Shown here: positions 3,042 to 57,777 of the stretch, piece after piece
How the letters are laid out: every line of letters begins with the position of its first letter
Numbering within the stretch: position 1 is the stretch's first letter
DNA from: Terriglobia bacterium
Lineage (GTDB): Bacteria; Acidobacteriota; Terriglobia; 20CM-2-55-15
Assembly (NCBI GenBank): GCA_965262675.1
Contig: OZ253554.1
Span: forward strand, 332,747-396,746
Length of the DNA stretch: 64,000 nt
Direction of reading: 5' to 3'
Program-made: the position numbers and the translations under genes
Notes under the pieces: model-generated
Database searches by the model: none
The model's input: only the letters and a program-made list of their open reading frames with translations
Told to the model about the DNA's origin: nothing

Positions 3042-3147
3042 GGCATTCGGAAGAGTATAACCCAGCCGAGGGACAGGAAAACGGGCGGCCCGCCTCGATA
3101 CGGTGGGTCCGGCGCCCCAGAAGGCGATCGAGCGGCCTCCCGGCTAG

Positions 3148-3355: not shown

Positions 3356-3508
3356 CCAGACTCTCTCGACAGGGATGACCCGAACATCCTCGGTGGCAAC
3401 CCGATTCGAAGCATCGGTTCGGGTCGCCAAGTCTTCCGGAATTCGGTCGTTGTCGGTGACGCGCCTATTGGGCTTGGTAATGTACGAAGGTCGTTGAATT
3501 CAACCGGC

Positions 3509-5017: not shown

Positions 5018-5020
5018 CGG

Positions 5021-5536: not shown

Positions 5537-6174
5537 CGGCTCACCTGATTTGGCTGGTTTGGTTGATTGACCTGGCCTGCCCGATCGGCTTGGTCCCACG
5601 CGAGCGACGGTTCTTCATCGCGATAGACGAACGTCGTCGCGGTAAACGTCGCCCCAACCGTGGACTCCGTACCGGGACCGGCGGCCCTCAGGTCGATTCC
5701 CGTAATGTTGACAATACGGCCCAGTTGACGAATCGCATCGAGAAAACTCCCCAGGTTGTGATACGTGGATTGAACCTGGAAATCCCAGGCCATTTCCGAG
5801 TACACATCCCGGTCCACGATAGGCCGGGGCAAGATCCGAACGACGCGCATCGAGGCCGTTTCGGCGATATTGCCGACCTCGCGCAAGATCTCGTCGGTTT
5901 CACGTTCGAGGGGCAGAATCGATTTCAGCCGGGCCAGTTGCTCCTGCAACGCTTCGGTTTCAGCCCGTATTTCAGCCAGTTGCATCCGGCGCTGCACCGC
6001 CTGCGAGATTTCAGCGTCGACCTCGCTCAGCCGATCCTGCCGAGCCTCGATCGCGGCGCCGATAGGCATCAGGAACCGCCACCAGAACAGGCCCAACAGG
6101 GTGCCGGCGGCGCCTGCCACCAGGAGCGCCTGGTAGTACCACTTGAGCCTCTGGAAATCGTTGAAATCCACCAT
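5533..6174 (-). CDS. pilO: Type IV pilus assembly protein PilO
   Basis: 213 aa. Single N-terminal TM helix, coiled coil, and a position between pilN and pilP. Confidence 0.7.
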   Translation of the reverse strand: MVDFNDFQRLKWYYQALLVAGAAGTLLGLFWWRFLMPIGAAIEARQDRLSEVDAEISQAVQRRMQLAEIRAETEALQEQLARLKSILPLERETDEILREVGNIAETASMRVVRILPRPIVDRDVYSEMAWDFQVQSTYHNLGSFLDAIRQLGRIVNITGIDLRAAGPGTESTVGATFTATTFVYRDEEPSLAWDQADRAGQVNQPNQPNQVSR

Positions 6175-6186
6175 CGTTCCAAGACC

Positions 6187-6846
6187 TCAGTGCAACTGGC
6201 CCGGGTTGCCCCGAGCCCCGGCTTCGATACCGCCGCCGTCGTTTTGAGCGCCGCCCCCGGCGCCCGCACTATCTGAACCCGGTGGCGGCGGCACAAATTG
6301 GCAGGTCAGATTGAAGGTGAAATATTCGTTGGCTTCCTGCAGGTTCCCGAAATCGATATTCCGGAAGTAGCCATTGGTTCGAAGCGTCTGGATAAAATCG
6401 GCGAAGGCACTCTGCGACGTCACCGTACCTGCGATGGAAACGTCGGCGTCGGACTGAATCAGCGCCGACAGCCAGATATAGTCGATTCGATCCATCGCGA
6501 GACTCAACTGGTCCAGCACGAGGACTGGACTCGCCTGGTATTTCTGGAGATTTCGGATCGTGTCGACGCGGTTCCGGAGCATGTCACGACGGCTCTCGAA
6601 TATCAGGTTCTCGTCGATTTCGCGCTGAAGCCGATCCCGCTCGGCTGTCGCGGCCGCAATCCGGGATGACAGATCCACCGATTCGGAAATGAGCAACGAC
6701 CGCCCAATCCAACCTCCGACGGCGGCGGCCGCCAGGAATGCCACCCAGAGAACCGTCAAAACGTTGGCCGGGAGGGCGATGCTGAAACCCGCCTTTCTGC
6801 GGCGTGCGGATATTTTCGCCCGCCCGATGAGGTTGATTCGAATCAT
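6187..6846 (-). CDS. pilN: Type IV pilus assembly protein PilN
   Basis: 219 aa starting MIRINLI (the conserved PilN N-terminus that binds PilM), followed by a TM helix. Overlaps the pilM stop. Confidence 0.75.
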   Translation of the reverse strand: MIRINLIGRAKISARRRKAGFSIALPANVLTVLWVAFLAAAAVGGWIGRSLLISESVDLSSRIAAATAERDRLQREIDENLIFESRRDMLRNRVDTIRNLQKYQASPVLVLDQLSLAMDRIDYIWLSALIQSDADVSIAGTVTSQSAFADFIQTLRTNGYFRNIDFGNLQEANEYFTFNLTCQFVPPPPGSDSAGAGGGAQNDGGGIEAGARGNPGQLH

Positions 6847-45879: not shown

Positions 45880-45937
45880 GCGGGGCCAATGGCGCACGTA
45901 ACGCGATCCCTGCAGGGTTCTACCACGGGCTGCTATG
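45880..45937 (-). repeat. REP-like short repeat, family B
   Basis: See 42040..42097. Intergenic between the dehydrogenase and the mscS-like gene. Confidence 0.65.
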
Positions 45938-46846
45938 GTGGAAAGCGGTGGTATCGACACCGTGATTCCATCGGCCCGTTGCCGCCGATCGCGGCTACCT
46001 TGCAATGCCGTCTCACGGGCGGAATGGAAGACGCCGGATGCCGCAGTTCTTTCAGGAAACGCTGACCGACCTCTATGCCGGGTACAGGAGTATCTGCCCA
46101 CGGCAATTACGGCATTACTGCTGGCGCTGGCCGGATTGGCTCTGGCCGCTATCCTCCGTGCCCTGCTCACACGATTGGTGGCCGGCATCGTCAGGCGCCT
46201 GGCAGCCAACAGAAAATATGGCCCGAGCGTGGCCTTGCCCGTACTGGACTCGCTGCCGCGCCTGGCCGGCGGCATCGTGTTCTGGCTCACGTTGCTGATA
46301 TTCGGATCAGCCGCGCTCGAACGTCTCGATTTCCAGATTTTCGCCGGGTTGCTGGGTCAGTTCACCGAGTATCTCCCGAACGTGTTTCTGGCGATGATGG
46401 TTCTGTTTGCCGGTCTTGCCGGAGGGCGCTTCGCCCGCCAGACCGCGACTTCGGCCCTCGGTGCCGCCAGTATCGGGGGAACCGAACTTATCGGCCGCCT
46501 GTGCCAGGCTTCCATCGTTCTGGTCGCCGCCGGCATGGCCGCGGATCAGATCGGCGTGGACAGTACCTTCATGATGTTGATCGTTGGAATCGGGCTCGGC
46601 ACGACCCTGGGCGGCATGGCCCTGGCTTTCGGAATCGGTTCCGGACCGGTCGTCGCCAACATCATCGCCTCCTACTACGTCCGGCGGATGTATCGTGCCG
46701 GCCTCAACGTTCGGATCGGAACGCTCGAAGGGCGCATTATCGAGATCCGGCCAACCACTGTCGCGCTCGACACTCCGGACGGGCGCCTGCAGGTTCCTTG
46801 CCGCCGCTTCATCGATGACGTGTCGGTGCTGTTGAGGGAATCGTGA
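45935..46846 (+). CDS. Mechanosensitive-channel-related membrane protein (conserved-TM-helix repeats + MscS beta-domain-like C-terminus); N-terminus probably in another frame
   Basis: Repeated (E)YLPxxxxAxxxLxxG helices and C-terminal IGTLEGRIIEIRPTTVALDTPDGRLQVP. The first ~50 codons of this frame look non-coding. A typical N-terminus MPQFFQETLTDLYAGY starts at 46038 in a different frame. Confidence 0.6.
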   Translation: MVESGGIDTVIPSARCRRSRLPCNAVSRAEWKTPDAAVLSGNADRPLCRVQEYLPTAITALLLALAGLALAAILRALLTRLVAGIVRRLAANRKYGPSVALPVLDSLPRLAGGIVFWLTLLIFGSAALERLDFQIFAGLLGQFTEYLPNVFLAMMVLFAGLAGGRFARQTATSALGAASIGGTELIGRLCQASIVLVAAGMAADQIGVDSTFMMLIVGIGLGTTLGGMALAFGIGSGPVVANIIASYYVRRMYRAGLNVRIGTLEGRIIEIRPTTVALDTPDGRLQVPCRRFIDDVSVLLRES

Positions 46847-47026
46847 GCAGCCTGCCGGCGCAGTTGGCTCTCGGCTTTCTGGATGCCCATCCATCCGAAG
46901 CGGCACGCGTACTTGGAGAACTTGGGCCGGCAGAGGCGGCGAGCATCCTGTCTTCGGTTGAACCCCAAACCGCGGCGCGCGTTCTGGGCGCCATGGTCTC
47001 ACCCGAGATCCGGCGTTGTCTCGAAC
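46843..47026 (+). pseudogene. MgtE-N/CBS-domain protein, 5' part (61 codons), truncated by the insertion at 47027
   Basis: The reading frame continues exactly at 55812 once 47027..55811 is removed. Confidence 0.85.
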
Positions 47027-47619
47027 TGTTGCCGATCACGAGAAACCGCGGTTTTTTGAACACGCGCCGATCAATCATGAACGTCTCGCGGGAGCCCTGG
47101 GACGGCCCAGTCGCCGTTGAGGAGGACGAAAGTCGGCGAAGGGGTCAATCCAGGCGCTGTGACGCAGGCATTTCACGCACTGAGACAGAGGCAGGCGCTC
47201 GTGATCGCGCGAGTTCGTGACCGAACGCACAGGCTGATGCGTCACTCCTGCCCGGGACTGGCGTCTTGGATACTCTCGCTGGCGCAACGAATGGCACAGC
47301 TTTCCCTTCGGAGACGCTTGATAGCGGCGACCAGCGGCGCGGACGTGCTGTTGTCGCATCCTCTGTCTACAGGCAACGCTGCAGTAGCGCTGTCCGCGAT
47401 CACAGCCCAAGCAGATCGTGAACATCACACCGCAGCTTGGGTCACAACATGAACGTAGTCTAACGCCGTCCGACAGGTCATCTACTCTGGAGATGGGCAT
47501 ACGTGCCACGATAACCCACGCAGGAATCGTCTTGTATCGAGAACGCGCCTTCGGCGCGGATGATGATGTCAAAAACCGGCGAGAGTCCAAAAAACTTCAC
47601 TTTCTGATGATCGCTTACA
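47027..47619 (-). mobile_element. 593-bp TIR element, copy 1
   Basis: The 45-bp ends match 32/45 (tgttgccgatcacgagaaaccgcggttttttgaac... vs rc tgtaagcgatcatcagaaagtgaagttttttggac...). Carries one 171-codon Cys-rich ORF. Confidence 0.8.
47075..47590 (-). CDS. Cys-rich (two CxxC-type clusters) hypothetical protein encoded inside the 593-bp element
   Basis: 171 codons (probable start MPISRV at 47500). Contains CCDPSCGVMFTICLGCDRGQRYCSVACRQR and CVKCLRH. An identical copy lies at 55260..55775. Confidence 0.5.
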   Translation of the reverse strand: MDSRRFLTSSSAPKARSRYKTIPAWVIVARMPISRVDDLSDGVRLRSCCDPSCGVMFTICLGCDRGQRYCSVACRQRMRQQHVRAAGRRYQASPKGKLCHSLRQREYPRRQSRAGVTHQPVRSVTNSRDHERLPLSQCVKCLRHSAWIDPFADFRPPQRRLGRPRAPARRS

Positions 47620-48560
47620 AGCGTTTCGAACCGGGTGCAGCGGCTCCCTTCGAGCTTGCGGAACGGGCGGGCATTGAGCCGGTCCAACAGTTCCGCGATC
47701 GCTTCATTCAGAGCCCCCAGACTGAAGAACCTGCGTTTGCGCAGTCCGGCCAGTATCCACCGCTCGACGACAAGCACCCCCGCCTCGGCCTTGGCCTTAT
47801 CCCGGGGTTTACGCACCCGCGCCGGAATGACGGCGATGCCGTAATGGGCGGCCATGTCCCGATAGGTGGGATTCAGATCCGGTTCGTACCGGCAGGGACG
47901 CCGGACCGCGCTCTTCAGGTTGTCCGGGACCACCAGTGCGGGGGCTCCCCCAAAGAACTCCAGCGCACGCACGTGAGAGCCGATCCAACAGGCCAGATCC
48001 TGGCTCCAGGTCGCTTCGGCGAACGTATAATTGCTGGCCCCCAGGACGGCCACGAAGATCGAGGCCTCCTGGATCGTCCCCGTCTTCGAATCCACGACGG
48101 GAACCTTCGGGCCCGCATAATCGACAAACAGCTTTTCTCCGGCCCGGTGTTCCTGCCGCAGGACCACGTCGAGCTTTCCTCTCCACTGCCGATAGAGCTC
48201 GCAGAACCGGCTGTAGGCATATCCATCCGGATTCGATTGCTTGTACTCCTGCCAGAGCCATTGCACCGTGACATGCTTGTGGCGGCGCAATTCGTCGTGG
48301 ATTGCCGCCCAATTCGGCGCCGGACGATCCGGAGCCCGCGTCGCCCGCGGTGGAAACAGTCGCGCCTCCAGCCCCGATTCATCCACGCCCTCGGGCAACG
48401 GCCATTCCACACCCGCCGCCGCGGCCCGGCGGATATAATCGCTGACCGTGCCGTGGTTGATCCCACAACTGCGGGCGACCTGTCGGTGACCTAGCCCCAG
48501 TTCGAATTTGAGTCGTAGAACTTCTTTGATCTTTCGCATGGACAATCTCTTTGCGGGCAT
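47620..48560 (-). pseudogene. istA: IS21-family transposase IstA, C-terminally truncated
   Basis: N-terminal HTH (MRKIKEVLRLKFELGLGHRQVARSCGINHGTV) and DDE region (LFVDYAG..., VVPDNLKSAV). Homology ends at ...RFETL, where the sequence becomes the 593-bp repeat. No istB is present. Confidence 0.8.
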
Positions 48561-48747
48561 GTGCTTTCCCTCCTTGACCCAAAGGGAAAACAGTACCCGC
48601 CGGTTGTCCAGCGTCGCTATCGGCCGCTTCGATTCCGGAGCATCTCATCCACCATTCCGACCGGCACCCAAAAACTGGATGGCTTCGCGTCGGAATCGCT
48701 GGATGCTTTCCCTCGAAATCGCTGAATGACTTGCTCCGGAATACGCA
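47620..48747 (-). mobile_element. IS21-family IS fragment: left end plus the 5' ~940 bp of istA
   Basis: The minus-strand end tgcgtattccgg... (48747) is followed by reiterated cagcgattTcga / cagcgattCcga motifs and then istA. It is cut at 47619/47620 by the 593-bp element. Confidence 0.7.
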
Positions 48748-48897
48748 GGTGGTGCGGGGCAGGCTGCATAGCGCCAGCAGCCGCGCCATGAAGCCCAGAT
48801 CGGCGTCTGTTTCGCTGGCCTCGACAAACTGGTTCACCTGATCGAAGCGGGTGAAGTGGTGGCGCGCTTGGGGCATTAGCTTGTCATGCTTCGGCAT
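48748..48897 (-). pseudogene. N-terminal ~50-codon fragment of a plasmid RepA_C-like replication protein, cut by the IS21 end
   Basis: MPKHDKLMPQARHHFTRFDQVNQFVEASETDADLGFMARLLALCSLPRT, followed by IS21 terminal sequence. The family assignment is from memory of the GF.AR....LP motif only. Confidence 0.35.
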
Positions 48898-48968
48898 GGC
48901 CTTTCCTCTTACTCGGTCTTCATTCCAGATCAGGTCCGAATCAGAACAGGGAAGGCTATACTGACCAG

Positions 48969-49271
48969 ATGAGCCAAGAATCCGTCATCATCATGGCGAT
49001 CATCGGGATAATCGTGACTATCATCGGAACTGGTATTGGCCTTGCCGCCGTCCTTGTTCTTGGACAAAGGGCGCTACGTAGGGATATCGCAGACCGGAGC
49101 GAGAGCACGCGGAAAGACATTGCCGCACTGGGTGAGCGCGTGGGTAAGGTGGAGTTAGGTTTGGTTGATCGCATAGGCAAGCTGGAAAGCACCCTCGGCG
49201 ACCGTATATCCAAGGTTGAAGGCTTGTTCGAGGGCTTCACAAAATCTGCGCCGCAATCCACGCCTCAGTGA
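48969..49271 (+). CDS. Small membrane-anchored coiled-coil protein (hypothetical)
   Basis: 100 aa. One N-terminal TM helix (VIIMAIIGIIVTIIGTGIGLAAVLVL), then reiterated ERVGKVE / DRIGKLE / DRISKVE heptads. Lower GC than its surroundings. Confidence 0.5.
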   Translation: MSQESVIIMAIIGIIVTIIGTGIGLAAVLVLGQRALRRDIADRSESTRKDIAALGERVGKVELGLVDRIGKLESTLGDRISKVEGLFEGFTKSAPQSTPQ

Positions 49272-49297
49272 GACGCACTCACTCTATCGCCTGAAAA

Positions 49298-52200
49298 TCA
49301 CTGGATCACCGGAACCACCGGCAGGGTGGTGAAGATGTGGTTGCCGGGGTCCATTTCCAGGGCTACGGCCGTAAACAGCCCCTCCCCTGTCGCGGCGCAG
49401 CGCACCGACCCCGAGAAGTCGGACGTATCGGCGGCGAGGAACGCCTGGTCGATGAACCAGGCCGTCTGCCCGTTGGCCGCAAGAGGGATGCTGGCGGCGT
49501 CGCGCAACACGCCCTCTTTCCTCAATTCGCACCGCACCAGCCCCGGACTCGATTCCAGGTTGTGGAGCGCGACCCCCGTCGTGATTCCTCCCTCCTGGCG
49601 GCGCACCGGGAAGAGGGCGTCGCTGAGGGGGAGGCTGGCCCCCACCCCGGCCACCCCGAAGTCGGGGTGGTCAAAGCGGAGCATCCCGCCGATGGGACCG
49701 TCCGAAACCACCTTCACCGATCCCGACAGCAGTTCCCCCCGCCCATGAGTCGAGATCGTGAGCACTCCCAGCGGCTCCATCTCGGTGCGGACCGTCAGCG
49801 CGCCGTCCTCGGTGACCTCCAGATTGTCCGTGATGTCCACCACCGATTCGGCGGCAATCGGATTGCCCGCGGTGTCGTAGAAATAAATAACGGGACGGGT
49901 CGGAGGGATCACCGTATGAAACGGGGTGAGGGGAGGACCGCTCGGCCGCGTCTCCAGGTTCACGAACACCAGATCGGTGATCCAGGGACCGGTGGTATAA
50001 TGCGCAAACTCCACAGCAGTCTGCTTGTTTCCGCTTCCCATCCCGTTGGCAAAATGCGCAAAGCCCAGAGTGGTCGCCTCGGGCCGTCCCCGGTTCACCT
50101 CCACCACCGGCAGCGTGGTGAAGGTGCGGGTGCCGGGATCCATTTCCAGGGCCACGGCGCTGAACCGCCTGCGGCCGGGCGCGGCGCATCGCACCGACCC
50201 CACAAAGTCCGATGTATCGGTCGCGGTGAACACCTCTTCGATGAACCCGGAGGTCTGGCCGTTGGCCTCCAGAAGGATCTCCACCTCTTCGAGCGCGACG
50301 CCCCCGCGCATCAGTCGGCAACGCACCCCCATCGGTTCCTCTCCCAAGTTGTGCAGCGCCGCCGCCGTCGTGACTCCTCCCTCCTGGCGGCGAGCCGGGA
50401 AGATGACATCCCGGACGGGGGGGCTGGCCCCCACCCCGGCCACCCCTATCTCCGGGACGTTATAGCGCACACCGCCGCCGATGGGACTCGAGACCACCTT
50501 CACCGATCCCGACACCGGCTCCCCTCGTCCGTGGGTTGAAATCGTGAGTTCGCCCAGGGGCTCCATCTCCGTTCGAACGGTCAGGCTGCCGTCCTCCGCG
50601 ATCTCCAGATCGTCCATGAGATCCACCACCGATTCCGGGTCGATGAGATGGCCCATCTGATCGTAAAAGTAGAGGGCTGGCTGGATCGGATGGGTGGACA
50701 GATTCAGGAGCACCAGATCGGAGGTGATGCCGGTCCCATTGGCGAAATGCGCAAAGTCCAGAACCACCGGCAGCGTGGCCTCGGCCCGGTTGGAAGCCCG
50801 GCTCTCGCCGATCCGGTTCACCGCCCGCACCTGGAAGACGTAGACCGTGCTGTTGGTGAGGCCGGTGACCGTATGGGTAGTGTGGGTGGAGCCGATGGAT
50901 ATCCACCTTCCCTCCCCGTTGATCCGGTACTCGTAACGCCGGATCGCAGAGCCGCCGTCGTCCTCCGGCGCGTCCCAGGCCAGCACGGCCTCGCCGATCC
51001 CGCCCGCCGCCGTCAGGTTCCGGGGCGCCTCCGGCGCCGTCAGTCGCGGGCCGCCACCTCCACCACCGCCGCCAGGTGGCCGTGTAGCGCCGCAGACGGA
51101 CCCTCGAAAAGTGATCGTCGCCAACCACGCCTGAAATGCAGTATCCGCCGGCGCACACAAATTGGTCGACCGTATATCCAACACCGAGAGTTGTGACAGC
51201 GCCGACAGGGTTAGCGGGAGGGGCTCGCTCAACATATTCTCGTTGAGATACAGGATCTGGAGGTTGGTCAGATTCCCCAGCACAGCCGGAATCGTCCCGC
51301 TCAACGTATTGCTCCAGAGAGACAGCCTCTGGAGATTCGTCAAGTCCCCCAGCTCGGCCGGGATCGCCCCGCTCAACATATTCTCGTTGAGATACAGGAA
51401 CTGGAGACTGGTCAAGTCCCCCAGCTCGGCCGGAATCGTCCCGCTCAACGTATTCCGGGAGAGATACAGCCTCTGGAGACTGGTCAAGTCCCCCAGCTCG
51501 GCCGGGATCGCCCCGCTCAACATATTCTCGTTGAGATACAGGAACTGGAGACTGGTCAAGTCCCCCAGCTCGGCCGGAATCGTCCCGCTCAACGTATTGC
51601 TCCAGAGAGACAGCCTCTGGAGATTGGTCAAGTCCCCCAGCTCGGCCGGGATCGCCCCGCTCAACATATTCTCGTTGAGATACAGGAACTGGAGACTGGT
51701 CAAGTCCCCCAGCTCGGCCGGAATCGTCCCGCTCAACGTATTCCGGGAGAGATACAGCCTCTGGAGACTGGTCAAGTCCCCCAGCTCGGCCGGGATCGCC
51801 CCGCTCAACATATTCTCGTTGAGATACAGGAACTGGAGACTGGTCAAGTCCCCCAGCTCGGCCGGAATCGTCCCGCTCAACGTATTGCTCCAGAGAGACA
51901 GCCTCTGGAGATTGGTCAAGTCCCCCAGCTCGGCCGGGATCGCCCCGCTCAACATATTCTCGTTGAGATACAGGAACTGGAGACTGGTCAAGTCCCCCAG
52001 CTCGGCCGGAATCGTCCCGCTCAACATATTCCGGGAGAGATACAGGAACTGGAGACTGGTCAAGTCCCCCAGCTCGGCCGGAATCGTCCCGCTCAACATA
52101 TTCCGGGAGAGATACAGGAACTGGAGACTGGTCAAGTCCCCCAGCTCGGCCGGAATCGTCCCGCTCAACGTATTGCTCCAGAGATACAGCTGCTGGAGGT

Positions 52201-52873
52201 TGGTCAGATTCCCCAGCTCGGCCGGGATCTCCCCGCTCAACTTATTGGCTTGGAAATACAGGTGCCGGAGGTTGGTCAAGTCGCCCAGTTCAGCCGGAAT
52301 CGTCCCGCTCAACCCATTGGCGTAGAGATACAGGATCTGGAGGTGGGTCAAGTCCCCCAGCTCGACCGGGATCGTCCCGCTCAACGTATTCTGGGAGAGA
52401 GACAGCTGCTGGAGGCTGGTCATATTCCCAAGCTCGACCGGGATCGTCCCGCTCAACATATTCTGGTCGAGTGCCAGGACCAGGAGGCTGGTCATATTCC
52501 CAAGCTCGACCGGGATCGTCCCGCTCAACATATTCTGCATGAGAAACAGCTTCTGGAGGTGGGTCAAGTCCCCCAGCGCCGCCGGGATCGTCCCGCTCAA
52601 CTCATTCTGGATGAGAGACAGCTGCACGACGCGGCCGTTTGCGTCCGTGCGGGTCCCGTACCATTCCGAGAGGGCCTCAGTGCTCAACCAGTTGGTGTTG
52701 TTCGTCCAGTTCGCACCGCCGGTCGCGTTGTAGAGCGCCACCAGCGCCGCCCGGTCCGTCTCCACGCTGCCCTGTGCGTGGGCGTTTCCACCGGTCAGAA
52801 GGAGGAAGGCCGCGAAGACGAAGACAGCGCACTTGCGCCCGTCATGGGAGTTGGAAGCGATGTCCTGCCTCAA
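49298..52873 (-). CDS. Secreted leucine-rich-repeat protein: signal peptide, LRR N-cap, ~20 plant-type 24-aa LRRs, poly-Gly linker, FN3 domain, two paralogous ~200-260-aa C-terminal domains
   Basis: 1,191 aa. Signal peptide KCAVFVFAAFLLLTGGNAHA; cap DRAALVALYNATGGANWTNNTNWLS..LSEWYG; LRR unit LxxLxxLxLxxNxLSGxIPxELGxLTx; FN3 (PRNLTAA...YEYRI...TGLTNSTVYVFQVRAVN). The C-terminal duplicated module starts at FAHFANG and ends at FTTLPVV. The start codon is TTG. Confidence 0.9.
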   Translation of the reverse strand: MRQDIASNSHDGRKCAVFVFAAFLLLTGGNAHAQGSVETDRAALVALYNATGGANWTNNTNWLSTEALSEWYGTRTDANGRVVQLSLIQNELSGTIPAALGDLTHLQKLFLMQNMLSGTIPVELGNMTSLLVLALDQNMLSGTIPVELGNMTSLQQLSLSQNTLSGTIPVELGDLTHLQILYLYANGLSGTIPAELGDLTNLRHLYFQANKLSGEIPAELGNLTNLQQLYLWSNTLSGTIPAELGDLTSLQFLYLSRNMLSGTIPAELGDLTSLQFLYLSRNMLSGTIPAELGDLTSLQFLYLNENMLSGAIPAELGDLTNLQRLSLWSNTLSGTIPAELGDLTSLQFLYLNENMLSGAIPAELGDLTSLQRLYLSRNTLSGTIPAELGDLTSLQFLYLNENMLSGAIPAELGDLTNLQRLSLWSNTLSGTIPAELGDLTSLQFLYLNENMLSGAIPAELGDLTSLQRLYLSRNTLSGTIPAELGDLTSLQFLYLNENMLSGAIPAELGDLTNLQRLSLWSNTLSGTIPAVLGNLTNLQILYLNENMLSEPLPLTLSALSQLSVLDIRSTNLCAPADTAFQAWLATITFRGSVCGATRPPGGGGGGGGPRLTAPEAPRNLTAAGGIGEAVLAWDAPEDDGGSAIRRYEYRINGEGRWISIGSTHTTHTVTGLTNSTVYVFQVRAVNRIGESRASNRAEATLPVVLDFAHFANGTGITSDLVLLNLSTHPIQPALYFYDQMGHLIDPESVVDLMDDLEIAEDGSLTVRTEMEPLGELTISTHGRGEPVSGSVKVVSSPIGGGVRYNVPEIGVAGVGASPPVRDVIFPARRQEGGVTTAAALHNLGEEPMGVRCRLMRGGVALEEVEILLEANGQTSGFIEEVFTATDTSDFVGSVRCAAPGRRRFSAVALEMDPGTRTFTTLPVVEVNRGRPEATTLGFAHFANGMGSGNKQTAVEFAHYTTGPWITDLVFVNLETRPSGPPLTPFHTVIPPTRPVIYFYDTAGNPIAAESVVDITDNLEVTEDGALTVRTEMEPLGVLTISTHGRGELLSGSVKVVSDGPIGGMLRFDHPDFGVAGVGASLPLSDALFPVRRQEGGITTGVALHNLESSPGLVRCELRKEGVLRDAASIPLAANGQTAWFIDQAFLAADTSDFSGSVRCAATGEGLFTAVALEMDPGNHIFTTLPVVPVIQ
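51269..52141 (-). repeat. Near-identical higher-order tandem repeat inside the LRR gene (72-bp LRR units organised in a 288-bp, 4-LRR super-unit, about 3 copies)
   Basis: The protein block [FLYLNENMLSGAIPAELGDLTN][LQRLSLWSNTLSGTIPAELGDLTS][LQFLYLNENMLSGAIPAELGDLTS][LQRLYLSRNTLSGTIPAELGDLTS] recurs verbatim. The opposite-strand ORF 51162..52325 shows the same exact periodicity. Confidence 0.9.
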
Positions 52874-52886
52874 TTGTGCCGTGTCC

Positions 52887-52975
52887 TCTTGGCTCTTGGC
52901 TCTTGGCTCTTGGCTCTTGGCTCTTGGCTCTTGGCTCTTGGCTCTTGGCTCTTGGCTCTTGGCTCTTGGCTCTTG
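52887..52975 (-). repeat. Heptanucleotide microsatellite (GCCAAGA on the minus strand; tcttggc on plus), 12 full copies + 5 nt
   Basis: Perfect 7-bp period from 52887 to 52970 (84 nt), then tcttg. It ends 14 nt upstream of the LRR start codon. Confidence 0.95.
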
Positions 52976-53096
52976 TGATAGGGTGGACGGACTGGCATTT
53001 CATTTGTCAAGCTCTTATTGGAATATTCGACAACGTGGTTCTACAGTCCTAACCCGGCGTAGCCGGAACCAAACAGGAATCCGGTAAGATGCCGGA

Positions 53097-54620
53097 ATGA
53101 GTATCGAACTGCTGACCGACCGGTACGCGAAACAGATCGCGGGAACGATTTCCTGCTACGACCGAATGCTACTCTTCGGGACGCTTCCGCAGATTTGCTA
53201 CGCGGAAGGGATGACCTCACTGTTGTACTCCCGCAATATCCGCATCTTCGATTATCCGCGCTTTGCGGAGCCATTCCGGAATCGGATCCGGGACAACGCC
53301 CATAAACTGGCATCCGATCACGGCATCGAGATCGAACACATCCGTAAGAAGAACTTCCGTAAGGAAGACAGGATTCGGAAGATCATCGCCGAGCGCGGCG
53401 ACGAGCCGGGCCTGGTGGCGATCTTCTCGGCCATGGAGCCGTGCGCGACGTTCAAGCCGTGGCATAACAAACAGTCTGGAAAAACGTACTTGATCTCGGA
53501 TCGGAGTAAGTGCCTGCACTATTACTTCTACTTCCTCGATGAAGAACTGGGCCTGTGCTATGTGCGCGTACCCACATGGTTGCCGTGCCGTCTACAAGTC
53601 TATTTCAACGGTCATAACTGGCTGGCCCTCCAGTTGAAACGCCGGCGCATTCCCTATCGGATGCTGGACAATGCCTTCGCCCACATCGGCGACTGGAGTC
53701 GGGCGCAAGAGATCGCCGACCGCCTGGAGGCCCGCCGCATCCACGAAAGATTGGATCGGTTTGCCCGTCAGTATTGCCCCATCATCGAACACTTCGATCT
53801 CGTGTATCACTGGAGTCTGAACCAATGCGAATACGCCACCGATGCGGTGTTCCGCCGGCAGGCCGATCTTGGGCCCATTTACGCCAATCTCACCCGCACG
53901 GCGATTCATACCGTCAAGCCCGATAACATCGCCACGTTTCTCGACCGCAAACTCCACCCCAATTACCAGGATGAAATGGGCAACCGTTTCAACATCCGAA
54001 TCGAAGGCGCCCGTATCAAACACACCATGGGACCGGTTTCATTGAAGCTCTATGACAAATCCGGCCTCATTCTCCGCATCGAGACCACCGTCAACGACGT
54101 GTCCTTTTTCAAGCACTACCGGAAGGTAGAACATCGCAACGGCGCCTGCGAAACCAAGTGGGCTCCCATGCGGAAAACCATCTACAGCCTGCCCCCACTG
54201 GCCGAACTGCTGACCGCCGCCAATCGCCGCTATCTGCAGTTCCTGTCGACCATCGAGGATCCCCGCGTCGGCCACCACAACATCGAGAAGCTCTCCCGCA
54301 CCGTCCGCGAAAACCTCCGCTCCCATCGCGGCTTCAACTTCTTCGACGCCGAAGACCAACTCCTGTTTGAAACCATCGCCCGTGGCGAGTTCAACATCAG
54401 CGGCTTTCAGAACAAAACTCTTCGACGCCACCTCTCTCACAAAACTTCCCCGCAAGTCTCCCGCATGCTCAAATGTCTCCGCGCCCATGGTCTCATCAAG
54501 AAGATTGGCCGCACTTACAAGTACTACCTCACCCTCTTCGGTAAACAAGTCATCGTCACCGGATTGAAACTCAAACATCTCGTCATCTTTCCTCAACTCG
54601 CTTTGCCTTCTACTCCATGA
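53097..54620 (+). CDS. Conserved-looking hypothetical protein (507 aa) with a possible C-terminal winged-helix
   Basis: Long ORF of clearly lower GC, divergent from the LRR gene. No catalytic motif recognised. The C-terminus (SRMLKCLRAHGLIKKIGRTYKYYLTLFGKQVI) looks like a MarR-type wHTH. Confidence 0.6.
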   Translation: MSIELLTDRYAKQIAGTISCYDRMLLFGTLPQICYAEGMTSLLYSRNIRIFDYPRFAEPFRNRIRDNAHKLASDHGIEIEHIRKKNFRKEDRIRKIIAERGDEPGLVAIFSAMEPCATFKPWHNKQSGKTYLISDRSKCLHYYFYFLDEELGLCYVRVPTWLPCRLQVYFNGHNWLALQLKRRRIPYRMLDNAFAHIGDWSRAQEIADRLEARRIHERLDRFARQYCPIIEHFDLVYHWSLNQCEYATDAVFRRQADLGPIYANLTRTAIHTVKPDNIATFLDRKLHPNYQDEMGNRFNIRIEGARIKHTMGPVSLKLYDKSGLILRIETTVNDVSFFKHYRKVEHRNGACETKWAPMRKTIYSLPPLAELLTAANRRYLQFLSTIEDPRVGHHNIEKLSRTVRENLRSHRGFNFFDAEDQLLFETIARGEFNISGFQNKTLRRHLSHKTSPQVSRMLKCLRAHGLIKKIGRTYKYYLTLFGKQVIVTGLKLKHLVIFPQLALPSTP

Positions 54621-54770
54621 CTCCCCATCATTTTCTGCCTCGAATGGTCAGAATCCGAATATAGAGGTACTAAATCTTTACGCAGAGGTAGTGAAAATAC
54701 ATCGTATCATGGCCGTGCGGACCTGCTTTGGAATGACGACCGATTAAGTGACGCGCCTACGGCTCTGATA

Positions 54771-55196
54771 TCAGCGCCCGCGCCATCCTGAATCCCTCTC
54801 TAGTCCGGGTTCCAGCTTCGGACGCGCCGCTTCCGCCGCTCGCTCGAGCTGCCACGCCTCGGACCAATTCTGCTCCTTCCACTCCTTCCCCAACTCCCGC
54901 TCGCTCCGCGTCTGCTCCTTGGACAACTCGGGATCGAGGGAGCGAATAAACGCGACCCTTCCGTGGGTGATGACCTTCTCCTGCTTTTCCCGCCTTTCCT
55001 TAAACGCGGCCCTGGACTGCTCCATCACCGCCTTCCATCGCTGCTCTTTCTCAGCCTCCCGCCGCACCGCTTCTGCCTCGGCCTTGCGCCATGCGTCCAG
55101 TCGCTCTTTCGACTTCCGTTGCACCTCCGCCCGGTACTCCGGGTCTTCTGCATACCGCCTCTGCTGCTCGGCCTCCCGCCGCTTGTACATCACCAT
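54771..55196 (-). CDS. Highly charged Arg/Glu/Lys-rich coiled-coil hypothetical protein
   Basis: 141 aa. Starts 16 bp from the inner end of 593-bp element copy 2, in the same orientation as its Cys-rich ORF. Confidence 0.4.
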   Translation of the reverse strand: MVMYKRREAEQQRRYAEDPEYRAEVQRKSKERLDAWRKAEAEAVRREAEKEQRWKAVMEQSRAAFKERREKQEKVITHGRVAFIRSLDPELSKEQTRSERELGKEWKEQNWSEAWQLERAAEAARPKLEPGLERDSGWRGR

Positions 55197-55211
55197 GAAC
55201 CGCTCCTCTCT

Positions 55212-55804
55212 TGTTGCCGATCACGAGAAACCGCGGTTTTTTGAACACGCGCCGATCAATCATGAACGTCTCGCGGGAGCCCTGGGACGGCCCAGTCGCC
55301 GTTGAGGAGGACGAAAGTCGGCGAAGGGGTCAATCCAGGCGCTGTGACGCAGGCATTTCACGCACTGAGACAGAGGCAGGCGCTCGTGATCGCGCGAGTT
55401 CGTGACCGAACGCACAGGCTGATGCGTCACTCCTGCCCGGGACTGGCGTCTTGGATACTCTCGCTGGCGCAACGAATGGCACAGCTTTCCCTTCGGAGAC
55501 GCTTGATAGCGGCGACCAGCGGCGCGGACGTGCTGTTGTCGCATCCTCTGTCTACAGGCAACGCTGCAGTAGCGCTGTCCGCGATCACAGCCCAAGCAGA
55601 TCGTGAACATCACACCGCAGCTTGGGTCACAACATGAACGTAGTCTAACGCCGTCCGACAGGTCATCTACTCTGGAGATGGGCATACGTGCCACGATAAC
55701 CCACGCAGGAATCGTCTTGTATCGAGAACGCGCCTTCGGCGCGGATGATGATGTCAAAAACCGGCGAGAGTCCAAAAAACTTCACTTTCTGATGATCGCT
55801 TACA
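55212..55804 (-). mobile_element. 593-bp TIR element, copy 2 (identical to 47027..47619)
   Basis: Identical sequence at an offset of 8185. Confidence 0.8.
55260..55775 (-). CDS. Cys-rich hypothetical protein (second identical copy)
   Basis: Its 171-aa translation is identical to that of 47075..47590. Confidence 0.5.
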   Translation of the reverse strand: MDSRRFLTSSSAPKARSRYKTIPAWVIVARMPISRVDDLSDGVRLRSCCDPSCGVMFTICLGCDRGQRYCSVACRQRMRQQHVRAAGRRYQASPKGKLCHSLRQREYPRRQSRAGVTHQPVRSVTNSRDHERLPLSQCVKCLRHSAWIDPFADFRPPQRRLGRPRAPARRS

Positions 55805-55811
55805 CTCGAAC

Positions 55812-56485
55812 GTATGGACACGGAGGTGTCGAGCGCGATACTCGCGGCACTTCCAACTGGAACCGCCGTATCGGTGCTCGCAACCCTGTACCCGGAAGCC
55901 CGCGCCCCTCTGATTGACGGCCTCCCCGCGCGCGTCCGGCACGGGTTCCGCCGCCGCCTGGAGTTTCCCGCCGGTACGGTTGGACGCCTCATGGAGTCCG
56001 CCGTGAACGTCATCGGGGAGGATTTCTCACGCGACTCGGCGCGCGATTCCTTTCGAGCGACGGATGCGCCTTATCTGTACGTCGTCGATTCGCAGCAGAG
56101 ATTGGCGGGGGTTCTGGCGCGCCGGGATCTGGAGGATCCACGCGAACGCCCCCTCGGCGAGATCGTCGTCCACAATCCCGTTTCCCTGCTCGCGACGCTG
56201 GAATGGGAAACGGCTCGTGAGCACGTGGCGTGGAAGGAGTTCGACGTGCTTCCCGTGGTGGACCGGGAGGGCTGCCTGATCGGAACCTTGCGTCACAAGC
56301 AGGTGCGGCGAACCGAAGGCGCTGCCTGGAACAGTGACTTCGTCCCGAGTTCGGGTCTGGATACGCTGTTCAGTCTGGAGGAAGCCTATTGTGCGGGCCT
56401 CTGGGAAGTGATTGGCTCGATGACCGAGGACGGCGAACTCCCGAGGACCGCACGTATGGATCCGGAGTCGGGACGGACATCATGA
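55812..56485 (+). pseudogene. MgtE-N/CBS-domain protein, 3' part (continues from 47026)
   Basis: MgtE N-domain-like helices (AILAALPTGTAVSVLATL) and a CBS pair (YLYVVDSQQRLAGVLARRDL; VLPVVDREGCLIGTL). No TM domain. The stop overlaps the mgtE start. Confidence 0.8.
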
Positions 56486-57777
56486 CCGCGCCGGAAGGCC
56501 GGATCGTCGAGCGGTTCGCGGACCTGTATCCCGATGAGGTCGCGCGCATCATGGAGTCTTTCAGCCCGGAAGAGAATGCCAAAGTGATGGACGAGACTGC
56601 TCCCGCGAGAGCGTTCGAGGTTATCCGGCGGCTGACGCTGCATGCCGGCGCCGAAGTTCTGCAGCGCCTGGATTCCGGGCATGCCTCAAGGATCGTCGAA
56701 CTGCTCGAACCCAATCGAGCCGCGGCGCTGCTGCTGCGCATTCCCGAAGAAGCCTTGTCGCGGATACTCGACGGCGCCTCTTCCGGATGTCAGCGAGAAC
56801 TGCGCATGTCCATGGAATACCCCCCCGACAGCGGTGGCCACCTGATGGACCCGTCGGTGATGACGATGTTCCCTGAAGCCACCGTCGAACAGGCCCTGGA
56901 TTGCGTGCGGGGACTGTTTCCCAAGCGCGTCGTCGACGTCTTTCTGGTCGATCCAGACGGGGTGTTGGAGGGCGCCGTACATCTTCAGGATATCGCGACC
57001 TCCAAGCCGGGAACCCGCCTTTCCGAGATCGCCGCCAGCGGCGCCCCACGAGTTCGCGATACGGCAACGCGCGAAGAGGTGGTCGAAGAAGCCGAAGCCC
57101 ACAAGGTGTCGAGTCTTCCGGTTGTCGACTTTTCGGACCGGGTAATTGGCGTGATCCGTCACGAGAACCTGATGCAAACCGTCGAACGGGAAGCCAGTTC
57201 CGATATCCAGACAATGGTCGGCGTCAGCAAGGAGGAGCGCGCACTATCGAGCGTCGGGTTCGTCGTCAGGAAACGACTGCCCTGGTTGCAGATCAATCTG
57301 GCCACGGCGTTCGTCGCGGCTTCGGTGGTCGGTTTGTTCGAAGAAACCATCGCCGGTTTCACGGCCCTGGCTGTCATGCTGCCCGTCGTGGCGGGTCAGT
57401 CCGGCAACACCGGCGCACAGGCACTTGCGGTGATCATGCGCGGGCTGTCCCTGCGCGAAATCACTCCGCGCCAGGCGCCGAAGGTCCTGACAAAGGAAGT
57501 CACCGTGGCGATTCTCAATGGTATCGCTGTCGCGGCCATCACCGGCACCGGCGTCCTGTTCTGGTACGGATCAATCGGTCTGGCCGGGGTTACCGCGGTT
57601 GCGATGGTGCTGTCGATGGCGTGCGCGGGGTTGGCCGGGGCGGCGATCCCCCTGCTTCTGCAAAGGCTCGGCCAGGATCCCGCACAATCGTCCTCGATTG
57701 TTCTGACGACGGTGACCGACGTCACAGGTTTCTTCAGCTTCCTCGGTCTGGCAACTATTTTTTCGTCTTTCCTGTAG
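56482..57777 (+). CDS. mgtE: Magnesium transporter MgtE (N-domain, CBS pair, 5-TM channel domain)
   Basis: 431 aa from MTAPEGRIVERF. The TM domain contains PVVAGQSGNTGAQAL and the C-terminal DVTGFFSFLGLA. Confidence 0.9.
   Translation: MTAPEGRIVERFADLYPDEVARIMESFSPEENAKVMDETAPARAFEVIRRLTLHAGAEVLQRLDSGHASRIVELLEPNRAAALLLRIPEEALSRILDGASSGCQRELRMSMEYPPDSGGHLMDPSVMTMFPEATVEQALDCVRGLFPKRVVDVFLVDPDGVLEGAVHLQDIATSKPGTRLSEIAASGAPRVRDTATREEVVEEAEAHKVSSLPVVDFSDRVIGVIRHENLMQTVEREASSDIQTMVGVSKEERALSSVGFVVRKRLPWLQINLATAFVAASVVGLFEETIAGFTALAVMLPVVAGQSGNTGAQALAVIMRGLSLREITPRQAPKVLTKEVTVAILNGIAVAAITGTGVLFWYGSIGLAGVTAVAMVLSMACAGLAGAAIPLLLQRLGQDPAQSSSIVLTTVTDVTGFFSFLGLATIFSSFL

What the first reader, a model, noticed from the sequence alone, without database searches (positions are those of the whole stretch)
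47020..55811. 8.8-kb mobile insertion with 593-bp identical direct terminal repeats and a 7-bp TSD splits an MgtE-N/CBS gene
Seen directly: 47027..47619 and 55212..55804 are identical, in direct orientation. The heptamer ctcgaac sits immediately outside both outer ends (47020..47026 and 55805..55811). Deleting 47027..55811 joins codon 61 of ORF 46843 to ORF 55814 in frame (...EIRRCLE-R-MDTEVSS...), restoring a 285-aa MgtE-N + CBS protein whose stop overlaps the start of mgtE. The two inner junctions have no matching duplications, so the whole unit appears to have arrived in one event. It is either a composite transposon or an unresolved replicative cointegrate of a circular element carrying one copy. 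The interior supports a plasmid or mobile origin: an IS21 stump, a RepA-like stump, lower-GC genes and a eukaryote-like LRR protein. The insertion should be polar on the downstream mgtE.
Basis: partly seen in the sequence, partly recalled or inferred. Interest (0 to 1): 0.78.

Follow-up and report, generated by a model that had tools for sequence, protein, structure and literature searches.

The report
Gene split by mini-IS21 composite transposon
An 8.8-kb block of foreign DNA, bounded by two identical 593-bp miniature relatives of the IS21 jumping gene, has jumped into a magnesium-transport operon. The insertion is an ordinary kind of event, but the miniature element belongs to a large, apparently undescribed family that keeps one small zinc-finger gene.

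Summary
47027-47619 and 55212-55804 are identical 593-bp direct repeats. CTCGAAC flanks both outer ends. Removing 47027-55811 restores a 285-aa MgtE_N/CBS gene. Two metagenome contigs, 95-98% identical to the flanks, carry that gene intact with CTCGAAC present once, so the 7-bp duplication is real.

The repeats are discrete mobile elements with ~45-bp terminal inverted repeats (TGT...ACA). Solo copies of ~530-615 bp occur elsewhere with 5-8-bp duplications. Full-length relatives of 3.1-3.4 kb share these ends and encode ORF1 (zinc finger), IstA, IstB and ORF4, so they belong to the IS21 family. The short form keeps only ORF1, which is under purifying selection (dN/dS 0.2-0.45). The ORF1 family has no Pfam or NCBIfam model.

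The best reading is one IstA/IstB-catalysed insertion, supplied in trans, of a composite unit bounded by two mini-IS21 copies. This includes the IS21 replicon-fusion variant. Homologous recombination into a solo copy, or an assembly loop, cannot be excluded without reads.

The interior is a mosaic of mobile debris plus an LRR surface-protein gene. The "RepA-like stump" is not supported. Inside the insertion sits a 1,627-bp unit encoding a 507-aa protein from a very large uncharacterised family.

The parts
46843..47026 (+). 5' fragment (codons 1-61) of the interrupted MgtE_N/CBS gene. Its GTG start overlaps the stop of the upstream mscS-like gene (45935-46846).
   Evidence: intact orthologues in L085/L086
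47020..47026 (.). Left copy of the 7-bp target-site duplication CTCGAAC
   Evidence: present once in the empty sites L085/L086
47027..47619 (-). Left copy of the 593-bp miniature IS21-family element. TIRs are TGTTGCCGATCACGAG... and ...CTGATGATCGCTTACA. ORF1 is on the minus strand.
47075..47590 (-). ORF1, a Cys-rich basic protein (171 aa as listed; likely true start is Met31 at 47500). Motif: CxxxxC...CxxCDRGQRYCxxxCR...AGRRYQ...VTHQ...CxxC..W.DPF.
47620..48747 (-). Stump of an unrelated IS21-family element (ISSpu5-like). It has a probable left end near 48747 and istA codons 1 to about 313, cut off by the left mini-IS copy. There is no istB.
48748..48897 (-). Orphan 5' gene fragment (about 50 codons) cut by the IS21 stump.
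48969..49271 (+). 100-aa predicted membrane/coiled-coil protein with no family hit
49298..52873 (-). 1191-aa secreted-type protein: about 20 plant-specific-type 24-residue LRRs, one fn3 domain and two ~260-aa C-terminal repeats. This is the main cargo gene.
52886..52975 (.). (CTCTTGG)x12.9 perfect heptanucleotide microsatellite, 13 bp upstream of the LRR gene start
53047..54673 (+). Discrete 1,627-bp unit carrying a 507-aa ORF (53097-54620). It has no TIRs and no duplication, and a hairpin CCGGCGTAGCCGG at its left end. It is probably an uncharacterised mobile element nested in the cargo.
54771..55196 (-). 141-aa highly charged ORF with no family hit
55212..55804 (-). Right copy of the 593-bp miniature IS21-family element, identical to the left copy and in the same orientation (ORF1 at 55260-55775, minus strand)
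55805..55811 (.). Right copy of the 7-bp target-site duplication CTCGAAC
55812..56485 (+). 3' fragment of the interrupted MgtE_N/CBS gene (an ORF is callable from ATG 55814)
56482..57777 (+). mgtE (431 aa). Its start overlaps the stop of the interrupted gene as ATGA. It is the downstream gene of the operon and probably suffers polarity.

Best explanation
The 8,778-bp unit (47027-55804) is a compound transposon. Its two arms are identical, directly oriented copies of a 593-bp non-autonomous miniature derivative of an IS21-family insertion sequence. The parent type has the layout TIR-ORF1(zinc finger)-istA-istB-ORF4-TIR and is about 3.3 kb long. The miniature form keeps both ~45-bp TIRs and ORF1 only.

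An IstA transposase with its IstB helper ATPase, made by a full-length relative elsewhere in the cell, synapsed the outer TIR of the left copy with the outer TIR of the right copy. It then integrated everything between them into codon 61/62 of the MgtE_N/CBS gene in one event, with a 7-bp staggered cut. The same product arises if those two ends were first abutted on a circular donor, which is the classical IS21 tandem-junction or 'replicon fusion' route. I treat that as a sub-variant of the same event.

The insertion destroys the MgtE_N/CBS gene. It probably also uncouples mgtE from its operon promoter.

Shown: the structure, the TSD, the empty site, the family assignment of the arms, the existence of full-length relatives with near-identical ends, and the same TSD range in solo copies.

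Inferred: trans-mobilisation, the single-step origin, and the polarity on mgtE.
For: - Identical 593-bp arms and a 7-bp duplication at the outer ends only.
- The empty site in L085/L086 holds CTCGAAC once and an intact gene.
- The arm is a discrete element. It aligns end to end (1-593) at 82-86% to solo ~600-bp copies in unrelated contigs, and L004 has its own 7-bp TSD inside a creatininase gene.
- Of 41 elements delimited in GTDB genomes, 27 are 529-694 bp, one is 1,023 bp and 13 are 3.1-3.4 kb. All have TGT...ACA ends. TSDs of 5-8 bp occur in both size classes.
- The long forms encode IstA (NF033546, 240 bits against a cut-off of 160) and IstB (NF038214, 215 bits against 200).
- Long elements whose TIRs are near-identical to the window's TIR exist: L095, L107, L109, L101 and L114.
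- The 593-bp element maps to the 5' ~540 nt plus the 3' TIR of the long forms.
- IstA acts on both single and tandem IS21 ends, and a cointegrase isoform specialises in tandems (PMC10122671).
- Miniature TIR elements are known to mobilise intervening DNA as composite-like transposons (TIMEs, PMC4133298).
Against: - No full-length partner lies in the 64-kb window, and the rest of the genome could not be searched.
- The same 8.8-kb unit was not found at a second site. The inner-junction 30-mer is absent from the JGI metagenome contigs, so movement as a unit is inferred from a single insertion.
- Homologous recombination into a pre-existing solo copy would give the identical sequence.
- No read data are available to exclude an assembly loop through the repeat.
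- IstA/IstB activity on this element's ends has not been tested.
Confidence: 0.62

Rival explanations
1. Two steps. A solo 593-bp mini-IS21 first inserted into the gene and made the 7-bp TSD. Later a circular DNA carrying another identical copy (a plasmid, an excised circle or a deletion product) integrated by RecA-dependent homologous recombination within the 593 bp. This gives TSD-copy-interior-copy-TSD.
For: The predicted sequence is identical to what is observed. Solo insertions of this element with 5-8-bp TSDs are common. 593 bp of perfect identity is ample for RecA.
Against: A simple donor, in which the circle's copy is itself a clean insertion, predicts matching 5-8-bp duplications at the two inner junctions. 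They differ: AGCGTTT versus CCTCTCT. The donor would therefore need a prior rearrangement. No solo-occupied site was seen in the relatives, which carry the empty site.
Confidence: 0.15
2. Assembly artefact. A solo mini-IS21 really sits in the gene, but the assembler threaded a loop (copy-interior-copy) through the repeat node. The 7.6-kb interior would really belong to an 8,185-bp circle or to another locus bounded by the same repeat.
For: The two copies are 100% identical. The repeat is longer than short reads. Members of this family typically break assemblies, and many homologues sit alone on 0.6-2-kb contigs. The interior has no link to the flanks other than through the repeat.
Against: The window is one contiguous 64-kb sequence with normal synteny on both sides. 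Most assemblers break at such a node rather than resolve it. The inner junctions are unique sequences. None of this is decisive without reads.
Confidence: 0.15
3. The 593-bp element is autonomous. ORF1, the ~140-170-aa zinc-finger protein, would itself be a novel minimal transposase that moved the composite.
For: ORF1 is intact in most short copies and is under purifying selection, with dN/dS 0.2-0.45. Short forms mostly form a deep group of their own in a crude NJ tree. The family is large: 3,470 representatives at 50% identity. No known domain was found.
Against: The short forms share TIRs, TGT...ACA tips and the 5-8-bp TSD range with long forms that carry bona fide IstA/IstB. This is the signature of IstA/IstB chemistry. 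The predicted fold is a zinc ribbon plus two helices with no candidate catalytic core. The invariant residues are Cys, Arg, Gly, Tyr and Gln plus a single Asp, so there is no DDE or HUH pattern.
Confidence: 0.05
4. IS26-type (IS6 family) or Tn3-type replicative cointegrate left unresolved.
For: Direct repeats of the element with a TSD at the outer ends is the canonical cointegrate structure.
Against: The arms are IS21-family derivatives, not IS6 or Tn3. No IS6 or Tn3 transposase or resolvase was detected among the interior ORFs scanned. IS21 reaches the same structure without replication, through abutted ends (PMC10122671; Reimmann & Haas work cited there, taken from background knowledge).
Confidence: 0.03

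Closest known systems
IS21 family insertion sequences (IS21, IS5376, IS100, ISSpu5; IstA DDE transposase plus IstB AAA+ helper)
   Same: Full-length relatives of the 593-bp arm encode IstA and IstB above NCBIfam cut-offs. Their termini are 5'-TG...CA-3' with long TIRs. Their TSDs fall in the 4-8-bp range of the family. A product with directly repeated copies flanking foreign DNA is what IS21 tandem-mediated replicon fusion yields (background knowledge of Reimmann & Haas).
   Different: The parent subgroup carries two extra conserved ORFs. ORF1 is a zinc-finger protein upstream of istA. ORF4 lies downstream of istB, reads through the right TIR and stops at the TAA of the terminal TAACA. Prototypical IS21 members are described as having two ORFs (PMC10122671). 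The arms here lack istA and istB altogether.
MITEs and mobile insertion cassettes (MICs): non-autonomous IS derivatives mobilised in trans (ISfinder/ISsaga usage, PMC3129680)
   Same: The element is small (593 bp), has IS-type TIRs and a TSD, has no transposase gene, occurs in many copies and breaks assemblies.
   Different: It is not non-coding as a MITE is. It retains one gene of the parent IS, and that gene is conserved under purifying selection across a deep radiation of short elements. Unlike a typical MIC, the retained gene is native to the IS rather than a foreign passenger.
Composite-like transposons built by miniature elements (TIMEs of the Tn3 family, PMC4133298) and classical compound transposons (Tn9, Tn10)
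   Same: Two copies of a terminal element bracket unrelated cargo. The unit carries a single TSD at its outer ends. The arms can be non-autonomous and served in trans.
   Different: The arms come from IS21 rather than Tn3, IS1 or IS10, and they carry an ORF. Movement of this unit has been seen at only one site.
IS26 (IS6 family) cointegrates and translocatable units
   Same: Directly repeated IS copies flank a captured segment, with a TSD only at the outer ends.
   Different: The transposase family and chemistry differ. No IS6 transposase was detected among the ORFs scanned.

Membership tests
IS21 family (the 593-bp arm as a member or derivative) | Encodes the IstA DDE transposase | tested here: not met
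   The arm has no istA; its only ORF is the 171-aa zinc-finger protein. Full-length relatives with the same ends do encode it: NF033546, 240 bits against a cut-off of 160. The arm is therefore a derivative, not an autonomous member.
IS21 family (the 593-bp arm as a member or derivative) | Encodes the IstB AAA+ helper | tested here: not met
   Absent from the arm. Present in the long relatives: NF038214, 215 bits against a cut-off of 200.
IS21 family (the 593-bp arm as a member or derivative) | Terminal inverted repeats ending 5'-TG...CA-3' | tested here: met
   The ends are TGTTGCC... and ...GCTTACA, with about 30 of 43 positions matching between the arms. All 41 delimited relatives show the same tips.
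IS21 family (the 593-bp arm as a member or derivative) | Target-site duplication of 4-8 bp | tested here: met
   7 bp here, verified against the empty site. Solo short and long relatives show 4-8 bp.
IS21 family (the 593-bp arm as a member or derivative) | Ends shared with an autonomous IstA/IstB element, as trans-mobilisation requires | tested here: met
   L095, L107, L109 and L101 match positions 15-45 of the window's TIR at 93.5% (29 of 31), and L114 has a similar TIR. All carry ORF1-istA, with istB-ORF4 where the contig allows. Not shown for the host genome itself.
IS21 family (the 593-bp arm as a member or derivative) | Multiple subterminal transposase-binding repeats (L1/L2, R1/R2) | tested here: inconclusive
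   A near-invariant block ACATCATCCGCGCCGAAGGCGCG lies 55-78 nt from the ORF1-proximal end. No clear second copy of the terminal repeat was identified.
MITE | Small TIR element with a TSD and no coding capacity | tested here: not met
   The size, TIR and TSD criteria are met. However, ORF1 is conserved, with dN/dS 0.2-0.45, and is intact in most short copies.
Mobile insertion cassette (MIC) | IS-type TIRs bracketing gene(s) but no transposase | tested here: met
   Caveat: the retained gene is the parent IS's own first ORF, not a foreign passenger.
Compound (composite) transposon | Two copies of one IS-type element flank the cargo, with a TSD at the outer ends only | tested here: met
Compound (composite) transposon | The unit is found at more than one site, or its transposition has been observed | tested here: inconclusive
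   The inner-junction 30-mer was not found in the JGI metagenome contigs. Other collections were not searchable for it.
IS21 tandem-mediated replicon fusion (cointegrate) | The interior is a complete replicon with a replication gene or origin | tested here: not met
   No replication protein was detected in the interior. The 'RepA-like' fragment has no Pfam or plasmid match. A non-replicating circle remains possible.
IS6/IS26 cointegrate | IS6-family transposase in the repeated element | tested here: not met
   The arm's ORF has no IS6 or DDE hit. Its full-length relatives belong to the IS21 family.

The most novel reading that the evidence does not exclude
The ~530-615-bp ORF1-only elements may not be sporadic deletion products. 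They may be an old, self-perpetuating lineage of 'semi-autonomous' parasites of IS21-type elements. In this reading they keep a zinc-finger DNA-binding protein because it is needed to recruit, or out-compete for, the IstA/IstB of resident full-length elements. In the extreme form, ORF1 would itself be a minimal new transposase, which would make this the smallest autonomous bacterial IS. A second novelty is nested in the same insertion. The 1,627-bp unit with its 507-aa protein has no TIRs, no TSD and no known domain, and at least 7,900 90%-identity clusters were found, mostly on contigs of only 1.6-3 kb. It may represent a very abundant, undescribed class of mobile element.
Probability: 0.3. 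Interest if true: 0.75.

Novelty: new variant of a known kind. Interest (0 to 1): 0.42.

Why it matters
The insertion itself is a textbook-type event. It knocks out a magnesium-transport accessory gene and probably silences mgtE, while delivering an LRR surface protein.

The wider value lies in what the arms reveal. There is a large subgroup of IS21-family elements, mostly in Acidobacteriota, with two extra conserved genes. There is also an abundant miniature lineage that keeps only the zinc-finger gene under selection.

- The miniature lineage is a tractable case for asking what accessory proteins do in IS21 transposition.
- It also bears on how non-autonomous elements persist.
- It shows that such elements can move 7.6 kb of cargo.
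- For annotation, neither ORF1 nor the 507-aa protein has a model in Pfam or NCBIfam, so these elements are invisible to standard pipelines and fragment metagenome assemblies.

Tried and rejected
- Is the 593-bp arm a deleted copy of the adjacent IS21 stump? Rejected. The stump's left end (TGCGTATTCCGG...) differs from the arm's TIRs, and its IstA is only 29% identical to the IstA of the arm's full-length relatives.
- IS66-like ends (GTAAGCG) with an 8-bp TSD? Rejected. Shifting the boundaries by 1 bp destroys the duplication (reasoned), and the relatives encode IstA/IstB.
- Two independent chromosomal insertions? Rejected. The empty-site contigs lack the whole interior and the gene is continuous there.
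- Exact-sequence look-ups of window proteins (ORF1, MgtE, the 507-aa protein) and of P0001 returned nothing, so the source genome and its other copies could not be examined.
- Pfam, NCBIfam and PHROGs scans, a PDB sequence search and Foldseek for ORF1 gave no significant hit.
- The same searches for the 507-aa protein gave only a weak C-terminal winged-helix signal.
- The 'RepA-like' fragment had no Pfam hit at E<=10 and no tblastn hit in 72,556 plasmids.
- The 593-bp element has no match in PLSDB plasmids.
- The inner-junction 30-mer has no match in the JGI metagenome contigs.
- The promoter and terminator scans gave counts no higher than shuffled controls, so nothing can be said from them about read-through into mgtE.
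- Literature searches for an IS21 with a zinc-finger ORF, or for IS21-derived MITEs, found nothing relevant. The Berger & Haas review and the Reimmann & Haas paper are not held.


Full report
OBSERVATION

The two stretches 47027-47619 and 55212-55804 are identical over 593 bp, in direct orientation. Identity stops abruptly at both ends. The heptamer CTCGAAC lies immediately outside both outer ends, at 47020-47026 and 55805-55811. The chance of such a match at fixed positions is about 8e-5. The two inner flanks, AGCGTTT and CCTCTCT, are unrelated. Joining 47026 to 55812 gives an in-frame 285-aa protein with MgtE_N and CBS signatures.

The gene sits in a translationally coupled operon:
- The stop of an mscS-like gene overlaps its GTG start at 46843.
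- Its own stop overlaps the ATG of mgtE at 56482.

EMPTY SITE

The restored protein has 90%-identical, full-length homologues of 285 and 284 aa in two ENA metagenome contigs. These contigs, L085 and L086, are 95.7-97.7% identical in nucleotide sequence to the window on both sides. They show the same gene order: GSDH-like, mscS-like, MgtE_N/CBS, mgtE, then the 195-aa and 160-aa genes.

The left-flank alignment ends at L086 position 2975 and the right-flank alignment begins at 2969. The sequence there reads GGCGTTGT-CTCGAAC-GGATGGAC, with the heptamer present once. The 7-bp repeat is therefore a genuine target-site duplication, and the whole of 47027-55804 is an insertion.

WHAT THE 593-BP REPEATS ARE

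Each copy has imperfect terminal inverted repeats of about 45 bp: TGTTGCCGATCACGAGAAACCGCGGTTTTTTGAACACGCGCCG and TGTAAGCGATCATCAGAAAGTGAAGTTTTTTGGACTCTCGCCG. Each also carries, on the minus strand, an ORF of 171 aa that is Cys-rich and very basic.

The ORF1 protein:
- It has no Pfam, NCBIfam or PHROGs model.
- It has clear homologues at 46-99% identity. They share an invariant core, C-x2-C-D-R-G-Q-R-Y-C-x3-C ... A-G-x-R-Y-Q, plus well-conserved V-T-H-Q and C-x2-C ... W-x-x-P-F motifs.
- A profile search finds 3,470 representatives at 50% identity with E<=1e-3, nearly all 130-250 aa long.

Evidence that the arm is a discrete mobile element:
- The whole 593 bp aligns end to end with ~600-bp stretches in unrelated contigs, at 86% in L001-L003 and 82% in L004.
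- The L004 copy sits inside a creatininase gene, flanked by its own 7-bp duplication CCGAGAG in locus orientation.

THE PARENT FAMILY

A scan of GTDB species genomes found more than 516 loci encoding relatives of ORF1. Most are in Acidobacteriota (Bryobacterales, Acidobacteriaceae, Solibacteraceae), with some in Myxococcota, Burkholderiales and Planctomycetota.

I delimited elements by their TIRs, which gave 41 elements with a bimodal size distribution:
- 27 elements of 529-694 bp
- one element of 1,023 bp
- 13 elements of 3,093-3,398 bp

All begin TGT and end ACA. Target duplications of 5-8 bp occur in both size classes.

The long elements have the layout ORF1 (zinc finger, ~155 aa), IstA (498 aa), IstB (261 aa), ORF4 (~130 aa).
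- IstA scores 240 bits on NF033546 against a cut-off of 160.
- IstB scores 215 bits on NF038214 against a cut-off of 200.
- ORF4 reads through the right TIR and stops at the TAA of the terminal ...GCTAACA.
- In most short elements ORF1 is fused to that same tail, so its stop lies 2 or 9 nt from the tip.

The window's element maps to the first ~540 nt and the last ~45 nt of the long forms. It is thus an internally deleted, non-autonomous derivative of an IS21-family element that retains only ORF1.

A second scan, using an 18-mer from the window's TIR, recovered long ORF1-istA(-istB-ORF4) elements with near-identical TIRs. L095 is 3,288 bp; the others are L107, L109, L101 and L114. Autonomous partners with matching ends therefore exist in nature. 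None lies in the window, and I could not search the rest of the host genome.

ORF1 IS MAINTAINED BY SELECTION

Among short elements, ORF1 is intact at 148-224 aa in 21 of the 28 short copies scored, the window's own included. Pairwise dN/dS is 0.20-0.45 over aa identities of 46-85%. In a crude neighbour-joining tree, the short elements mostly form deep groups separate from the long ones, with a few exceptions.

An AlphaFold model has pLDDT 65 overall and above 80 for residues 41-110. It shows two beta-hairpins bearing the first four cysteines, followed by two long helices. Foldseek finds nothing significant; zinc fingers such as YacG appear only at E around 7. I infer a zinc-ribbon nucleic-acid-binding accessory protein. 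No catalytic motif is evident.

A near-invariant block, ACATCATCCGCGCCGAAGGCGCG, contains a GCGCC/GGCGC hairpin. It lies 55-78 nt from the ORF1-proximal end in both size classes. This block explains the apparently conserved 'SSAPKA' at the listed N-terminus. The true start is probably Met31, at 47500.

HOW THE 8.8-KB UNIT AROSE

The structure is TSD-arm-7,592 bp-arm-TSD, with arms in direct orientation and no matching inner duplications. This is what one integration event gives when it uses the outer end of each arm. Two routes lead to it:
- a compound transposon moving as a unit, or
- the IS21 route, in which the two ends are first abutted on a circular donor and the whole circle is integrated (replicon fusion).

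IstA is known to act on both single and tandem ends, and a cointegrase isoform favours tandems (PMC10122671). Miniature elements of another family, the TIMEs, have been shown experimentally to mobilise intervening plasmid DNA in this way (PMC4133298). The 7-bp duplication matches what solo copies of this very subfamily make.

I give this explanation 0.62. The alternatives:
- Homologous recombination of a circle into a pre-existing solo arm gives the same sequence. It needs a donor whose own arm lacks a clean TSD, because the inner flanks differ. I give it 0.15.
- An assembly loop through the repeat cannot be excluded without reads. I give it 0.15.
- An autonomous element with ORF1 as transposase is unlikely, given the ends and TSD shared with IstA/IstB elements. 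I give it 0.05.
- A literal replicative IS6- or Tn3-type cointegrate does not fit the family assignment. I give it 0.03.

THE INTERIOR

From left to right:
- A stump of an unrelated IS21 element (ISSpu5-like, 69% nt). It comprises its left end and istA codons 1 to about 313, cut by the left arm.
- About 50 codons of a gene that this IS21 had interrupted. I found no Pfam hit at E<=10 and no plasmid match for it.
- A 100-aa membrane protein.
- A 1,191-aa protein with about 20 plant-specific-type LRRs, an fn3 domain and two C-terminal repeats. Its DNA contains 144-bp double units up to 96% identical.
- A perfect (CTCTTGG)x12.9 tract, 13 bp upstream of the LRR gene's start.
- A 1,627-bp unit carrying a 507-aa ORF.
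- A 141-aa charged ORF.

No replication gene was found. GC content is 0.55-0.56 only for the 507-aa unit and for 48.7-49.3 kb. The LRR gene, at 0.63, matches the flanks at 0.61-0.62. The interior is best described as a mosaic of mobile-element debris plus one surface-protein gene. A plasmid origin is not demonstrated.

THE 507-AA UNIT (SIDE FINDING)

53047-54673 is 97% identical to L089 1425-3051, and identity stops sharply at both ends. It is 72.6% identical to L090 from the same left boundary. The unit has no TIRs and no flanking duplication. Its left end carries the hairpin CCGGCGTAGCCGG.

The protein family is very large. At least 7,937 clusters at 90% identity reach E<=1e-20 among only 8,000 candidates scored. 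Among the 120 best hits listed, almost all are 504-513 aa and about 70% identical to the query, and most sit on contigs of 1.6-3 kb, which is the signature of a repeat that breaks assemblies. There is no Pfam or NCBIfam hit. Public annotations call it 'HTH domain-containing' or 'ArsR family regulator'. Structure prediction (pLDDT 61) identifies only a C-terminal winged helix. It looks like an abundant, uncharacterised mobile element. I did not establish its mechanism.

CONSEQUENCES

The MgtE_N/CBS gene is split at codon 61/62. mgtE is now 9.4 kb from its operon's upstream genes. ORF1 of the right arm points away from mgtE, and the promoter scan is uninformative. Polarity on mgtE is therefore likely but inferred.

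COMPARISON AND NOVELTY

The event belongs to known kinds: a compound transposon, or an IS21-type fusion product, bounded by non-autonomous IS derivatives. Several features appear new. I found no description of any of them in the literature searched, and neither Pfam nor NCBIfam has a model for ORF1 or ORF4.
- The IS21 subgroup has two extra conserved ORFs.
- A widespread miniature lineage keeps the zinc-finger ORF under selection. It therefore fails the 'non-coding' criterion for a MITE and fits a MIC only loosely.
- This lineage can carry 7.6 kb of cargo.

ISfinder could not be consulted, so prior curation there cannot be excluded.

I rate the finding a new variant of a known kind, with interest 0.42.

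Noticed in passing
window 53047-54673 (ORF 53097-54620, + strand); L089 1425-3051; L090 about 4951-6503: A discrete 1,627-bp unit encodes a 507-aa protein. It has no TIRs and no TSD, and a left-end hairpin CCGGCGTAGCCGG. The protein family has at least 7,937 clusters at 90% identity. The 120 best hits are ~70% identical to the query, almost all 504-513 aa, and mostly alone on contigs of 1.6-3 kb. There is no Pfam or NCBIfam model; only a C-terminal winged helix is recognisable. It is probably an abundant, undescribed mobile element. In L089 and L090 it lies next to a divergent DUF772/DDE_Tnp_1_6 transposase.
   Followed up: partly
window 52886-52975: A perfect (CTCTTGG)x12.9 heptanucleotide microsatellite lies 13 bp upstream of the start of the 1,191-aa LRR gene (minus strand, start at 52873). 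It is a candidate slipped-strand phase-variation switch for that surface protein.
   Followed up: no
window 51226-52622: The LRR gene contains 9.7 copies of a 144-bp double unit (two 24-residue LRRs), with copies up to 96% identical. This suggests recent expansion or ongoing recombination within the repeat array.
   Followed up: no
window 47542-47564 and 55727-55749; the same position in L005-L068 elements: The block ACATCATCCGCGCCGAAGGCGCG (with a GCGCC/GGCGC hairpin) is near-invariant. It lies 55-78 nt inside the ORF1-proximal end of both the short and long elements and is more conserved than the TIR itself. It may be a second IstA site, an operator for ORF1, or an RNA element.
   Followed up: partly
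L046 2980-3375, L058 3407-3784 and most short elements: In this IS21 subgroup the last ORF reads through the right TIR and stops at the TAA of the terminal ...GCTAACA. In the short elements ORF1 is fused in frame to that same tail (...VQKT.F..DR*). The deletion that made the short form preserved this frame.
   Followed up: partly
L105 5062-5133: An apparent 72-bp 'micro' element consists of little more than two facing TIR halves of the same family. It lies about 1.6 kb from a 608-bp mini copy (2898-3505).
   Followed up: no
L001-L003 5876-6474: A 599-bp solo copy, 86% identical to the window's element, has no target duplication (ACTGGAG versus GCAACGT in window orientation). This suggests a rearrangement or recombination between copies at that locus.
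   Followed up: no
L087 (Paraburkholderia phytofirmans plasmid pOLGA1, NZ_CP014580.1, 252808-254322): A 51%-identical homologue of the 507-aa protein, annotated as an ArsR-family regulator, lies between two separately annotated c-type cytochrome genes. It may be an insertion that splits a single cytochrome gene.
   Followed up: no
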